64,000 bases of DNA from Escherichia coli (lineage in GTDB: Bacteria; Pseudomonadota; Gammaproteobacteria; Enterobacterales; Enterobacteriaceae), in assembly GCF_003334355.1 (NCBI RefSeq), contig NZ_QOWP01000024.1. The stretch is one strand, 5' to 3'. Position numbers: made by a program. Shown in pieces: positions 36,401 through 39,400 of this stretch (within the stretch, counting starts at the first letter, position 1; every line of letters starts with the position of its first letter).

Positions 36401-39400
36401 CGTTAATCCTCATGTTATTCCTGGCATGGTACAAGCTGAATCTATAAGCTTTTTTACCGGACTCACCATGCGCTGGTTCCGCGATGCTTTCTGTGCCGAA
36501 GAAAAACTGATTGCCGAACGTTTAGGCATCGACACCTATACGCTGCTGGAAGAGATGGCCAGTCGGGTGCCGCCTGGGTCGTGGGGCGTAATGCCGATCT
36601 TCTCCGACAGAATGCGCTTTAAAACCTGGTATCACGCTGCGCCTTCCTTTATTAACTTGTCCATTGACCCGGATAAATGTAACAAAGCGACATTGTTCCG
36701 TGCGCTGGAAGAAAATGCGGCGATTGTATCAGCGTGTAACTTGCAGCAAATTGCTGATTTCTCGAATATTCATCCTTCATCGTTAGTCTTTGCAGGCGGA
36801 GGTTCAAAAGGGAAATTATGGAGTCAAATTCTCGCTGATGTCTCGGGATTACCCGTCAATATTCCGGTGGTCAAAGAAGCCACTGCATTAGGATGTGCCA
36901 TTGCAGCTGGCGTCGGTGCCGGAATTTTTTCATCAATGGCAGAAACCGGAGAACGCCTGGTTCGCTGGGAACGGACGCACACACCAGACCCGGAAAAGCA
37001 TGAACTTTATCAGGATTCACGCGATAAGTGGCAGGCAGTTTATCAGGATCAGCTGGGGCTGGTTGATCATGGACTGACGACGTCGTTATGGAAAGCGCCT
37101 GGGTTATAGTTTCATTGACAGCCACATCATGATGACCGTGGCTGTTAGTTTTTGAGTATAGTTATTCTTATTTCCCTTCTTTTAGAGCTGGCTTGTTAAA
37201 AGCCAGCTTGCAGATTCATCGTTCCATCACCAGTACTATATTCAAGGGAAAATTGCTATTTTTCTTAAAGCATTAAGCACAACCCTTATTTTATAGCGAA
37301 TATTCCTAAAGACACTAATGGATGCAAAAGGGGTTTAATAAACTTCGATTTTTAGCAATTAGTGCTATTCTTTGTTAAATATGATGATGATAATTTTCCT
37401 ATTGAAAGAAACAGTTTTCTTATTAAGCAACAATAACTCATAGTTCATATTTAAATAAAATAAGAACTATGCAATTTTTAATCTATCAATTCGAAAGCAT
37501 TAGCAAATTAGCCAAATTGACACCTTCCCACCTCCAACTAACACTCAATACAGACCTCTGACAATTTAATAAGTTTCATTTTTAATGTCTGACGACTCAT
37601 CTCTTTCGTGGCTGTATTGTTTGTATATGGAGCGTTTATATGAATAGAATCTATCGCGTGATATGGAATTGCACTCTACAGGTATTTCAGGCCTGCTCGG
37701 AATTAACTCGCAGGGCAGGTAAAACATCGACGGTTAATTTGCGTAAATCCTCTGGACTGACAACGAAATTCAGTAGATTGACGCTGGGTGTTTTGCTGGC
37801 ACTAAGCGGTTCAGCGTCTGGTGCAAGTCTGGAAGTTGATAATGATCAGATTACCAATATTGATACTGATGTTGCTTATGATGCCTACCTGGTTGGCTGG
37901 TATGGCACTGGAGTGCTTAATATTTTGGCTGGCGGTAATGCCTCCTTAACCACTATTACTACCAGCGTCATTGGCGCTAATGAGGACTCAGAGGGCACCG
38001 TTAATGTTTTGGGTGGCACCTGGCGATTGTATGATAGCGGAAATAATGCAAGGCCTTTAAATGTGGGTCAATCCGGAACGGGGACGCTGAATATTAAACA
38101 GAAGGGTCACGTCGATGGAGGCTATTTAAGATTAGGTTCTTCGACAGGAGGCGTCGGGACGGTCAATGTTGAGGGAGAGGACTCTGTTCTGACGACCGAA
38201 TTATTCGAAATAGGTAGCTATGGCACAGGTTCATTAAATATTACGGATAAGGGTTACGTCACGAGTTCAATCGTCGCCATTTTAGGCTATCAGGCGGGCA
38301 GTAATGGCCAGGTTGTCGTTGAAAAGGGTGGCGAGTGGCTAATAAAAAATAATGATTCCTCAATTGAATTTCAAATTGGTAATCAAGGAACTGGGGAGGC
38401 GACTATTCGCGAGGGGGGGTTGGTTACGGCTGAAAATACGATTATCGGTGGCAATGCCACCGGTATCGGAACCCTGAATGTGCAGGATCAAGACTCTGTC
38501 ATCACGGTACGCAGACTCTATAATGGATATTTCGATAATGGCACAGTCAATATTTCCAATAATGGACTGATTAATAACAAAGAATATTCATTGGTGGGCG
38601 TTCAGGACGGTTCCCACGGTGTCGTCAACGTGACCGATAAAGGGCATTGGAATTTCCTCGGAACGGGCGAAGCTTTCCGCTATATCTATATCGGTGATGC
38701 TGGCGACGGTGAACTTAATGTCTCGAGTGAAGGCAAAGTAGATTCGGGAATTATCACTGCGGGGATGAAAGAAACAGGCACAGGCAACATTACTGTTAAG
38801 GATAAGAACTCCGTTATCACTAATCTCGGAACTAATCTTGGTTATGACGGCCACGGCGAAATGAATATCAGTAATCAGGGGCTTGTTGTCAGCAACGGAG
38901 GAAGTTCACTCGGTTATGGAGAAACCGGCGTCGGGAATGTCAGCATCACCACGGGGGGAATGTGGGAGGTCAATAAGAATGTCTATACCACCATTGGTGT
39001 TGCGGGCGTCGGAAACCTCAATATTAGCGATGGCGGTAAGTTCGTATCGCAAAATATTACTTTTTTGGGCGATAAAGCAAGCGGTATCGGCACACTGAAC
39101 CTGATGGATGCGACATCATCGTTCGATACTGTGGGTATCAATGTCGGTAATTTTGGTAGCGGTATCGTAAATGTCAGTAATGGTGCCACCCTTAATTCAA
39201 CGGGCTATGGATTTATCGGAGGAAATGCCTCCGGTAAGGGGATAGTTAATATTTCAACGGACAGTCTCTGGAATTTAAAGACATCATCTACTAACGCACA
39301 ATTGCTACAGGTCGGTGTATTAGGCACGGGTGAACTGAATATTACCACCGGAGGTATAGTTAAAGCGCGTGATACACAGATAGCTCTCAATGACAAAAGT

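What the first reader, a model, noticed from the sequence alone, without database searches (positions are those of the whole stretch)
37154..37639. AT-rich non-coding region of about 490 bp upstream of yneO
An unusually long, very AT-rich gap with A/T tracts follows the lsrK terminator and precedes the autotransporter gene. This composition is typical of H-NS-silenced promoters of horizontally acquired adhesin genes and could hold a long 5' leader or an unannotated small RNA.
Basis: inference. Interest (0 to 1): 0.3.

Follow-up and report, generated by a model that had tools for sequence, protein, structure and literature searches.

The report
Silenced promoter region of yneO autotransporter
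The AT-rich gap is real, but it is the already catalogued, H-NS-bound and MarA-bound upstream control region of the E. coli autotransporter gene yneO, with no sign of a small RNA or structured leader.

Summary
The lsrK–yneO spacer (37110-37639, 530 bp) is the most AT-rich stretch of the window, at 31% GC against 47%.

The H-NS reading is supported, but by published work, not new evidence. The K-12 version of this spacer differs by 1 nt. It is listed as one of 78 "promoter islands" and scored as H-NS-bound in all the ChIP studies that paper compiled. Genomic SELEX shows RpoD and RpoS holoenzyme and H-NS binding. The ETEC H10407 spacer is 530/530 identical. There, MarA ChIP-seq and gel shifts identify a marbox that maps to 37351-37365.

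The alternative ideas found no support:
- No Rfam family matches.
- The 30-aa ORF shows no sign of coding constraint.
- Candidate 5'UTRs fold no better than shuffled sequence.

What I add is comparative. The roughly 290 bp upstream of the ATG travel with the gene through three genomic contexts (E. coli, Pseudocitrobacter, a third enterobacterial lineage). All three keep:
- the marbox in the same orientation;
- a 151-152 bp spacer that aligns poorly;
- a perfect TTGACA-17-(A/G)ACACT promoter-like element, predicting an ~88-nt 5'UTR;
- a near-invariant last 42 nt before the ATG.

The published guessed promoter (CTGACA-17-TTTAAT) is not conserved. No transcription start data could be found. Verdict: an ordinary, already known kind of feature.

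The parts
37114..37154 (+). lsrK intrinsic terminator: 12-bp stem (37114-37125 / 37138-37149) followed by UUUU
   Evidence: Fold of 37105-37160 gives dG -18.5 kcal/mol, z -3.9. Nearly invariant in 50 E. coli-type sequences. The consensus scan missed it because the loop exceeds 8 nt.
37185..37209 (+). Second strong hairpin (perfect 9-bp inverted repeat AGCTGGCTT/AAGCCAGCT, 5-nt loop) with no U-tract. Role unknown, possibly part of the lsrK 3'UTR.
   Evidence: dG -17.7, z -3.8. It is polymorphic: 37187 G/A 34:16, 37192 C/T 43:7, 37201 A/T 18:31. Most strains therefore have a shorter stem.
37207..37552 (.). Published 'promoter island' 1596197_345 (ydeK/lsrK), mapped from K-12 coordinates
   Evidence: PMC3661553 Table 1. 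Mapped with w = 37640 + (1598086 - p), after adding 1977 bp to convert U00096.2 to U00096.3 coordinates. My crude scan finds 30-35 promoter-like sites per 500 bp here, against 13.7 +/- 6.8 for the window.
37254..37311 (.). Distal block shared by E. coli and the L019/L087 lineage. It contains the short palindromes CTTAA-N4-TTAAG and GAATATTC. It is absent from Pseudocitrobacter.
   Evidence: Alignment A2.
37351..37365 (-). Marbox GCACTAATTGCTAAA (MarA/SoxS/Rob-type site)
   Evidence: It is the only match to GCAYNNWNNRYYAAA in the 64 kb. It is identical to the site bound by MarA in ETEC H10407 by ChIP-seq and in vitro at 0.3 uM (PMC5684230). The H10407 spacer is 530/530 identical, and the site lies at 1717104-1717118 against a published centre of 1717112. 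The site is kept in the same orientation in L019/L087 and in Pseudocitrobacter.
37366..37516 (.). AT-rich spacer between the marbox and the -35-like hexamer. Length is 151 bp in E. coli, 152 in L019/L087 and 151 in Pseudocitrobacter. The sequence is poorly conserved.
   Evidence: Ungapped identity between E. coli and Pseudocitrobacter is 28%, the same as shuffles at 30.5%.
37439..37471 (.). AT-rich palindrome (14-nt arms, 5-nt loop), followed on the + strand by CAATTTTTAA. It is weakly terminator-like.
   Evidence: dG -10.4, z -6.1. It is polymorphic at 37442, 37443 and 37449 and is not conserved in the other lineages.
37517..37545 (+). Candidate core promoter P1: -35 TTGACA (37517-37522), 17-bp spacer, -10 AACACT (37540-37545). 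Predicted start is about 37552.
   Evidence: All three lineages have TTGACA, a 17-bp spacer of divergent sequence, and (A/G)ACACT followed by CAA(T/A)ACAGAC. The -10 hexamer (37540-37545) is invariant in 50 E. coli-type sequences, and the TTGACA differs only by a 1-base insertion in one of them. The strongest predicted bend of the gap lies just upstream, at about 37512. No start-site data were found.
37558..37586 (+). Published predicted promoter CTGACA-17-TTTAAT (37558-37563 / 37581-37586), the best-scoring match inside the RpoD SELEX fragment
   Evidence: PMC3946193. Neither hexamer is conserved in L019/L087 or Pseudocitrobacter.
37598..37639 (+). Near-invariant end of the 5'UTR, with Shine-Dalgarno GGAG at 37629-37632
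   Evidence: Identity between lineages is 90-98%, against 75-87% for the coding sequence. It is single-copy in E. coli and at least 95% identical in 4090 genomes. The fold is no more stable than shuffles.
37640..43060 (+). yneO-type (ECSE_1600 family) autotransporter gene, intact here at 1806 aa
   Evidence: It is a pseudogene in K-12 and frameshifted in O157:H7 and H10407.

Best explanation
The gap is a composite.

The first ~140 bp (37110-37250) belong to lsrK. They hold its intrinsic terminator and a second hairpin.

The remaining ~390 bp are the upstream control region of the autotransporter gene yneO. This DNA is AT-rich and full of promoter-like sequences. In E. coli it is occupied by the silencer H-NS and kept transcriptionally quiet under laboratory conditions.

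Within this region, a high-affinity MarA/SoxS/Rob-type site (37351-37365) lies 151 bp upstream of a conserved promoter-like element, TTGACA-17-AACACT (37517-37545). That element would give an ~88-nt 5'UTR that is unstructured and ends in a highly conserved ribosome-binding region.

My inference is that RNA polymerase initiates mainly at this conserved promoter when H-NS repression is relieved. I further infer that MarA-family activators bound at the remote site help relieve it.

Shown: composition, anatomy and cross-lineage conservation.
Shown by others: H-NS, RNA polymerase and MarA binding.
Inferred: which promoter is used, and what MarA does there.
For: - Composition and boundaries.
- Identity with K-12 (1 nt different) and with ETEC H10407 (530/530). 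The published data therefore apply to this sequence.
- Promoter island and H-NS binding in all the ChIP studies compiled: PMC3661553.
- RpoD holoenzyme and H-NS SELEX sites: PMC3946193.
- RpoS holoenzyme SELEX peak: PMC5493296.
- MarA ChIP-seq plus gel shift at 0.3 uM: PMC5684230.
- Promoter-like site density about 2.5 times the window mean.
- The marbox, a 151/152/151-bp gap, TTGACA-17-(A/G)ACACT and the 5'UTR are kept in three lineages with different upstream neighbours (lsrK; a pao-like operon; an MlrA-like regulator).
- Low diversity at 37360-37379, 37500-37519, 37540-37579 and 37600-37639 among 50 E. coli-type sequences.
- No 3' ends or start sites for this locus in the supplement text I could search, which may be incomplete. 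This fits a silent promoter.
Against: - No transcription start site data were obtained, so the choice of promoter rests on conservation alone.
- The -10 AACACT matches the consensus at only 3 of 6 positions.
- The marbox lies about 190 bp from the predicted start. That is far outside the positions where MarA-family proteins are known to activate (my own knowledge of class I and class II marbox promoters).
- The conserved spacing rests on only three lineages.
- The specific 10-bp H-NS nucleation motif is not enriched in the gap.
- Predicted curvature is only moderately high, in the top 6% of windows. The calculation used wedge parameters recalled from memory.
- I found no data showing derepression of yneO in an hns mutant.
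Confidence: 0.7

Rival explanations
1. The real yneO promoter is the published guess CTGACA-17-TTTAAT (37558-37586), or the overlapping CTAACA-16-GACAAT (37538-37565). Either would give a 45-68-nt 5'UTR. On this view the conserved TTGACA element upstream is something else, such as a binding site for another protein.
For: - RpoD holoenzyme binds the spacer in vitro, and this was the best-scoring match there (PMC3946193).
- Its -10, TTTAAT, matches the consensus better (5 of 6) than AACACT does.
- 37540-37579 shows low diversity within E. coli.
Against: - CTGACA and TTTAAT are not conserved in L019/L087 or Pseudocitrobacter, and a 5-bp indel falls between them.
- The -10 of the second candidate loses its final T in both other lineages.
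- SELEX-chip resolution does not single out one promoter.
Confidence: 0.2
2. Most of the gap is neutral AT-rich filler. Only the last ~125 bp matter. The marbox is a bound but functionless site, and H-NS coverage is a passive consequence of base composition.
For: - The gap has 12.5% variable columns among 7 strains, against 4.4% in lsrK and 7% in yneO.
- The 151-bp spacer cannot be aligned between genera.
- IS1 and TnAs1 insertions or deletions here are tolerated.
- The gene itself is often a pseudogene.
Against: - The marbox is retained in orientation and position in three lineages, while surrounding sequence is scrambled.
- The polymorphisms in the E. coli marbox that reach two or more of the 50 sequences, and the O157 variant, keep the consensus: GCATTAATTGCTAAA (7 of 50) and GCACCAATTGCTAAA. 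One singleton at 37356 changes a consensus position.
- The degenerate pattern is expected only about 2 times per 64 kb by chance.
Confidence: 0.15
3. The gap encodes an independent small RNA or small protein, or a long structured leader. One example would be a MarA-driven transcript starting near 37400 and ending at the AT-rich hairpin plus U-run (37439-37482).
For: - A -10-like GATAAT (37389-37394) lies 23 bp (37366-37388) downstream of the marbox.
- The hairpin at 37439-37471 (dG -10.4, z -6.1) is followed by CAAUUUUUAA.
- A 30-aa ORF lies at 37469-37561.
Against: - No Rfam match came near a gathering score.
- The GATAAT and the hairpin are not conserved in the other lineages, and the hairpin is polymorphic within E. 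coli.
- Variants of the ORF are all non-synonymous or frameshifts, and it has no Shine-Dalgarno sequence.
- No 3' end for this locus appears in the Term-seq supplement text I could search.
- The 5'UTR folds are weaker than shuffles.
Confidence: 0.05

Closest known systems
'Promoter islands' of E. coli K-12 (Panyukov & Ozoline 2013, PMC3661553)
   Same: This exact spacer is entry 1596197_345 (ydeK/lsrK) in their list of 78. According to that paper, such regions are AT-rich, dense in overlapping promoter-like sites, bound by RNA polymerase and H-NS, associated with foreign genes, and give very little full-length RNA.
   Different: Nothing differs in kind. The comparative analysis here adds that one promoter-like element within the island is conserved across genera, while the rest is not.
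H-NS-silenced upstream regions of horizontally acquired surface-protein genes (cryptic fimbrial and autotransporter loci of E. coli)
   Same: A long AT-rich upstream region, published H-NS occupancy, a gene that is variably present and often decayed, and no detectable transcripts in standard data sets.
   Different: I found no test of derepression in an hns mutant for yneO. The specific high-affinity H-NS 10-mer is not enriched.
mar/sox/rob regulon promoters (class I and class II marbox promoters such as marRAB, micF, fumC)
   Same: A near-consensus marbox that MarA binds in vivo and in vitro (PMC5684230). Its orientation relative to the downstream gene matches the 'backward' marbox of the marRAB promoter (my own knowledge of that promoter sequence).
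   Different: The marbox lies 151 bp upstream of the nearest conserved -35 hexamer. In known cases it overlaps the -35 or lies within about 20 bp upstream of it. MarA-dependent transcription of yneO has not been shown.
agn43 (flu) autotransporter phase switch (Dam/OxyR)
   Same: A long regulatory region upstream of an E. coli autotransporter adhesin gene.
   Different: There are no GATC sites anywhere in the gap, so a Dam-methylation switch is excluded.

Membership tests
Promoter island (Panyukov & Ozoline) | Listed region of at least 300 bp with an extreme density of predicted transcription start points | tested here: met
   Listed as 1596197_345 ydeK/lsrK. K-12 differs from the window at 1 of 530 positions. 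My crude sigma-70 scan gives 30-35 sites per 500 bp against 13.7 +/- 6.8.
Promoter island (Panyukov & Ozoline) | Binds RNA polymerase but yields little or no full-length RNA | not testable with these tools
   RpoD and RpoS holoenzyme SELEX binding is published. No start sites or 3' ends for the locus appeared in the supplements I could search. That is only weak negative evidence, because some held files are truncated.
H-NS-silenced xenogeneic promoter region | AT content well above the genome average over several hundred bp | tested here: met
   31.3% GC against 46.9%, the lowest 0.08% of windows.
H-NS-silenced xenogeneic promoter region | H-NS occupancy in vivo | not testable with these tools
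   Published as positive in all the H-NS ChIP studies compiled in PMC3661553 and in H-NS genomic SELEX.
H-NS-silenced xenogeneic promoter region | Derepression when hns is deleted | not tested
   No data were found. yneO is missing from the differential-expression tables I could search.
H-NS-silenced xenogeneic promoter region | High-affinity nucleation motif (TCGATAAATT-like) or strong intrinsic curvature. These are supportive features, not strictly defining ones. | tested here: inconclusive
   Only two overlapping 2-mismatch motif hits fall in the gap. Mean predicted curvature is in the top 6% of windows, with a local peak at about 37512, and there is no 10-11-bp A-tract periodicity. The curvature parameters were recalled from memory.
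mar/sox/rob regulon promoter | Marbox matching the consensus and bound by MarA | tested here: met
   GCACTAATTGCTAAA at 37351-37365. It is the same site as the published MarA ChIP-seq and gel-shift target.
mar/sox/rob regulon promoter | Marbox at a class I or class II position relative to the -35/-10 hexamers | tested here: not met
   The site lies 151 bp upstream of the conserved TTGACA. No conserved -10 lies at a suitable distance on either strand. The canonical distances come from my own knowledge.
mar/sox/rob regulon promoter | Transcription that depends on MarA, SoxS or Rob | not tested
   I found no expression data for yneO.
Small RNA gene or structured cis-regulatory leader | Match to a known RNA family, or a conserved stable structure with its own promoter and terminator | tested here: not met
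   The best Rfam hits reach 14-21 bits against gathering scores of 36-100. 5'UTR folds give z +1.1 to +2.2. The internal hairpins are polymorphic and not conserved between lineages.
Small protein gene | ORF maintained under purifying selection with a ribosome-binding site | tested here: not met
   For the ORF at 37469-37561, all 8 substitutions seen are non-synonymous, and there are 2 frameshifted alleles.

The most novel reading that the evidence does not exclude
The remote marbox is a working part of the system. It is held at a fixed 151-152 bp from a conserved promoter in three lineages, even though the DNA between them has been scrambled. MarA, SoxS or Rob bound there would act at long range against H-NS, as a counter-silencer or by DNA bending with a defined geometry. 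That would switch on a normally cryptic autotransporter adhesin during antibiotic, oxidative or bile-type stress. It would tie the mar/sox/rob stress response to surface adhesion, through a mode of action not described for these activators.
Probability: 0.2. Interest if true: 0.45.

Novelty: already known. Interest (0 to 1): 0.2.

Why it matters
As it stands, the finding has limited importance. It re-identifies a catalogued H-NS-bound promoter island upstream of a gene that is cryptic and often decayed.

The useful residue is practical:
- It gives a specific promoter candidate (TTGACA-17-AACACT, start near 37552) that disagrees with the published guess.
- It shows that the MarA site, reported in 2017 but not followed up in the paper that reported it, is conserved with the gene across genera at a fixed distance.

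Together these make a simple reporter experiment worthwhile. The question is whether the mar/sox/rob stress regulators control an autotransporter adhesin by relieving H-NS silencing from a distance.

Tried and rejected
- **Rfam, permissive thresholds:** only chance-level hits.
- **Built-in promoter/terminator scan:** no promoter passed its stringency. It missed the lsrK terminator because of the loop length. My relaxed scan finds many sites, as expected for AT-rich DNA, and cannot discriminate among them.
- **H-NS 10-mer motif:** not enriched in the gap.
- **Curvature model:** only moderately raised. Its parameters were recalled from memory, so I give it low weight.
- **Transcript-end data in paper supplements:**
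  - The Term-seq supplement has no lsrK or yneO entries.
  - The Cappable-seq supplement and the Kim 2012 TSS tables have no coordinates in range.
  - The Conway 2014 and Singh 2014 supplements are not held.
  - The Forrest 2022 files are truncated and lack yneO.
  - Thomason 2015 is not held.
- **Literature searches for b1510 and ydeK:** mostly irrelevant hits.
- **Genome-collection scan with the protein N-terminus:** only one real non-E. coli locus.
- **First metagenome scan, with a non-E. coli -10 pattern:** nothing found.
- **Second metagenome scan, with the 5'UTR:** 64 loci, all E. coli-type. These were useful for diversity within E. coli but not for new lineages. Conservation of 37601-37644 in that set is partly built in by the search pattern.
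- **Plasmid search:** only chromosomes misfiled as plasmids.
- **Small ORF at 37469-37561:** rejected.
- **Dam/OxyR-type switch:** rejected, because there is no GATC.
- **MarA-driven promoter next to the marbox, on either strand:** examined by eye and not conserved. In Pseudocitrobacter the marbox abuts the upstream gene's terminator, which argues against a promoter pointing away from yneO.
- **Paralogous copies of the conserved 5'UTR in E. coli:** none found.
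Full report
**What is there**

The window is E. 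coli DNA, 99.93% identical to K-12 MG1655 1588000-1603000 in reverse orientation. lsrK ends at 37109. An intact 1806-aa autotransporter gene starts at 37640. RefSeq calls it 'ECSE_1600 family'; in K-12 it is the pseudogene yneO, formerly ydeK/ydeU.

The non-coding gap is therefore 37110-37639 (530 bp), and no RefSeq record annotates anything in it. It includes the window's minimum, and only 0.08% of windows of that size are as low. A/T tracts are twice as dense and TpA steps 1.65 times as frequent as in the window.

It is the longest of 28 spacers in the surrounding 50 kb of K-12. Its composition matches other long spacers nearby: ydeN/ydeO 32%, gadB/pqqL 30%, ydeP/ydeQ 33%. It describes a class of spacers in this neighbourhood, not a one-off.

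**What is already published for this DNA**

The K-12 spacer differs from the window at one base, 37237. The ETEC H10407 spacer is 530/530 identical. Published genome-wide data therefore transfer directly.

- Panyukov and Ozoline list '1596197_345 ydeK(-)/lsrK(-)' among 78 'promoter islands'. They mark it as H-NS-bound according to all the ChIP studies they compiled, and as associated with a predicted foreign gene (PMC3661553). In window coordinates this is about 37207-37552.
- Their abstract describes such islands as binding RNA polymerase and forming open complexes while giving almost no full-length RNA.
- Shimada et al. found RpoD holoenzyme binding in the yneO/lsrK spacer by genomic SELEX. 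They flagged an H-NS SELEX site there and printed the best-scoring promoter match, CTGACA-17-TTTAAT (PMC3946193). This is 37558-37563 / 37581-37586.
- A later SELEX study reports an RpoS holoenzyme peak in the same spacer (PMC5493296).
- Sharma et al. found a MarA ChIP-seq peak upstream of yneO in H10407, with the site gcactaattgctaaa. Purified MarA bound it at the lowest concentration tested (PMC5684230). That sequence lies at 37351-37365 on the minus strand. In H10407 it is at 1717104-1717118, matching the published site centre of 1717112. The ChIP peak centre maps to about 37373.

**Tests of the small-RNA, small-protein and long-leader ideas**

- A permissive Rfam search gave only chance-level hits, 14-21 bits against gathering scores of 36-100.
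- The gap holds three notable hairpins.
  - The first is the lsrK terminator (37114-37149 plus a U-run; dG -18.5).
  - The second is a perfect 9-bp inverted repeat (37186-37208; dG -17.7) with no U-tract. It is polymorphic, so most strains carry a shorter stem.
  - The third is an AT-rich palindrome (37439-37471; dG -10.4), followed by CAAUUUUUAA on the plus strand.
- The third hairpin could in principle end a short transcript started downstream of the marbox. However, it is polymorphic within E. coli and absent from related lineages.
- No 3' end for lsrK or yneO appears in the Term-seq supplement text I could search.
- The 30-aa ORF at 37469-37561 shows only non-synonymous changes and frameshifts among 50 sequences.
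- Candidate 5'UTRs (37552, 37572 or 37594 to 37660) fold less stably than shuffled sequence, z +1.1 to +2.2. This is normal for a translation start and argues against a structured leader.
- There are no GATC sites, so a Dam/OxyR switch of the agn43 type is excluded.

**Comparative anatomy**

Within E. coli the spacer is detectable in 4225 of 5426 complete genomes, and in 4005 at 80% coverage or more, with 93.6-100% identity.

It varies more than its flanks. Among seven diverse strains, 12.5% of columns vary, against 4.4% in lsrK and 7% in the first 2.5 kb of yneO. The last 120 bp are the least variable, at 7.6%.

Fifty E. coli-type sequences, including metagenome contigs, show low-diversity blocks at 37360-37379, 37500-37519, 37540-37579 and 37600-37639. 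The last block was part of the search pattern, so its conservation in that set is partly built in. The complete-genome search confirms it independently.

Outside E. coli I found two further lineages of the gene.

- Pseudocitrobacter vendiensis and matching read-archive (Logan) assemblies carry it at 79% protein identity (L011, L013). The upstream neighbours are a BLUF-EAL gene and an MlrA-like regulator.
- A third enterobacterial lineage carries it at 74% (L019, L087). A pao-like molybdoenzyme operon lies divergently upstream, and hipBA lies downstream.

All three lineages share the following features.

- A marbox, TTTAGC..TT.GTGCT as read on the gene's strand, in the same orientation.
- A gap of 151, 152 and 151 bp to a perfect TTGACA. 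Ungapped identity across this gap between E. coli and Pseudocitrobacter is 28%, which is random.
- A 17-bp spacer of divergent sequence.
- (A/G)ACACT followed by CAA(T/A)ACAGAC.
- A variable stretch containing a 5-bp indel.
- A final 42 nt before the ATG that are 90-98% identical, against 75-87% for the coding sequence.

E. coli and the third lineage also share a distal block at 37254-37311. The roughly 290 bp from the marbox to the ATG therefore belong to the autotransporter gene and move with it, and about 390 bp do so in two of the lineages. Only about 37110-37250 is lsrK-side DNA.

**Which promoter**

Invariant hexamers at fixed spacing, with a free spacer sequence between them, are the classical footprint of a promoter. 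TTGACA-17-(A/G)ACACT shows this pattern.

It predicts a start near 37552 and an ~88-nt 5'UTR. That position equals U00096.2 coordinate 1596197, which is the edge of the published promoter island. The strongest predicted bend of the gap (about 37512) sits just upstream of its -35.

The published CTGACA-17-TTTAAT is not conserved in either other lineage. An overlapping CTAACA-16-GACAAT loses the key final T of its -10 in both.

I therefore favour the conserved element. This is an inference. Its -10 matches the consensus at only 3 of 6 positions, and I could find no start-site data.

**What MarA might do**

The marbox is real and bound according to published work, and it is conserved according to this analysis. 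However, it lies about 190 bp from the predicted start, far from the positions where MarA-family activators are known to act (my own knowledge).

No conserved -10 lies at a suitable distance on either strand. In Pseudocitrobacter the marbox abuts the upstream gene's terminator, which argues against a promoter pointing away from yneO.

The most economical reading is that MarA, SoxS or Rob modulate H-NS repression of the downstream promoter from a distance. The alternative, that this is a bound but idle site, cannot be excluded. The conserved spacing rests on three lineages only.

**Verdict**

The finding is a correct observation with a largely correct first interpretation, and it is already documented for this locus. 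The small-RNA and long-leader suggestion is not supported. The cross-genus conservation of the marbox, its spacing, one promoter-like element and the end of the 5'UTR is a modest new detail that sharpens an experiment. It does not change the category.

Noticed in passing
37640-43060: The autotransporter gene is intact here (1806 aa). It is a pseudogene in K-12 (one indel), frameshifted in O157:H7 strain 17B6-2 and in ETEC H10407, and truncated by IS1 in strain L37. In L37 the whole spacer after the lsrK terminator and the 5' end of the gene are lost.
   Followed up: partly
about 37325 (L002, strain ST540): In strain ST540 a TnAs1-type transposon carrying tet(A) is inserted in the spacer. The insertion lies just upstream of the marbox and leaves 37325-37639 and the gene intact.
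   Followed up: no
L011:283-297: Pseudocitrobacter has a second perfect marbox (GCACAAATTGCTAAA) upstream of the neighbouring BLUF-EAL gene. In E. coli, the BLUF-EAL gene ycgF also has a MarA ChIP site in its divergent spacer (ycgF<>ycgZ, PMC5684230 Table 1).
   Followed up: no
about 15770-18520 (by K-12 mapping): The marC-marRAB locus, which encodes MarA itself, lies in the same window about 20 kb from the yneO marbox. Its own marbox starts CCAC, so my GCAY pattern did not pick it up.
   Followed up: no
63071-63876 and 52611-53486: Other very AT-rich stretches of the window correspond by coordinate mapping to the gadB/pqqL and ydeN/ydeO spacers. The first has the highest promoter-like site density in the window, 47-49 per 500 bp. 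gadB/pqqL and ydeO/safA are also listed as promoter islands.
   Followed up: partly
37186-37208: A perfect 9-bp inverted repeat with a 5-nt loop lies about 40 bp after the lsrK terminator. It is very stable as RNA (dG -17.7) but has no U-tract on either strand. The perfect form is a minority allele, with 37201 A in 18 of 50 sequences. Its function is unexplained.
   Followed up: partly
37617-37647: A weak hairpin pairs the U-rich 5'UTR segment UUGUUUGUAUA with the start-codon region and leaves the Shine-Dalgarno sequence in the loop. The two Pseudocitrobacter differences in it turn G-U pairs into A-U and G-C pairs. The energy is not better than shuffles, so this may mean nothing.
   Followed up: partly
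L087:11624-13539 and window downstream of 43060: hipBA follows the autotransporter gene both in E. coli and in the third lineage, so yneO-hipBA synteny is older than the lsrK junction.
   Followed up: no
L010, L012: Contigs labelled Candidatus Nanosynbacter (MAG) and Marinomonas sp. carry this E. coli gene at 92-98% identity. They look like E. coli contamination of those assemblies.
   Followed up: no
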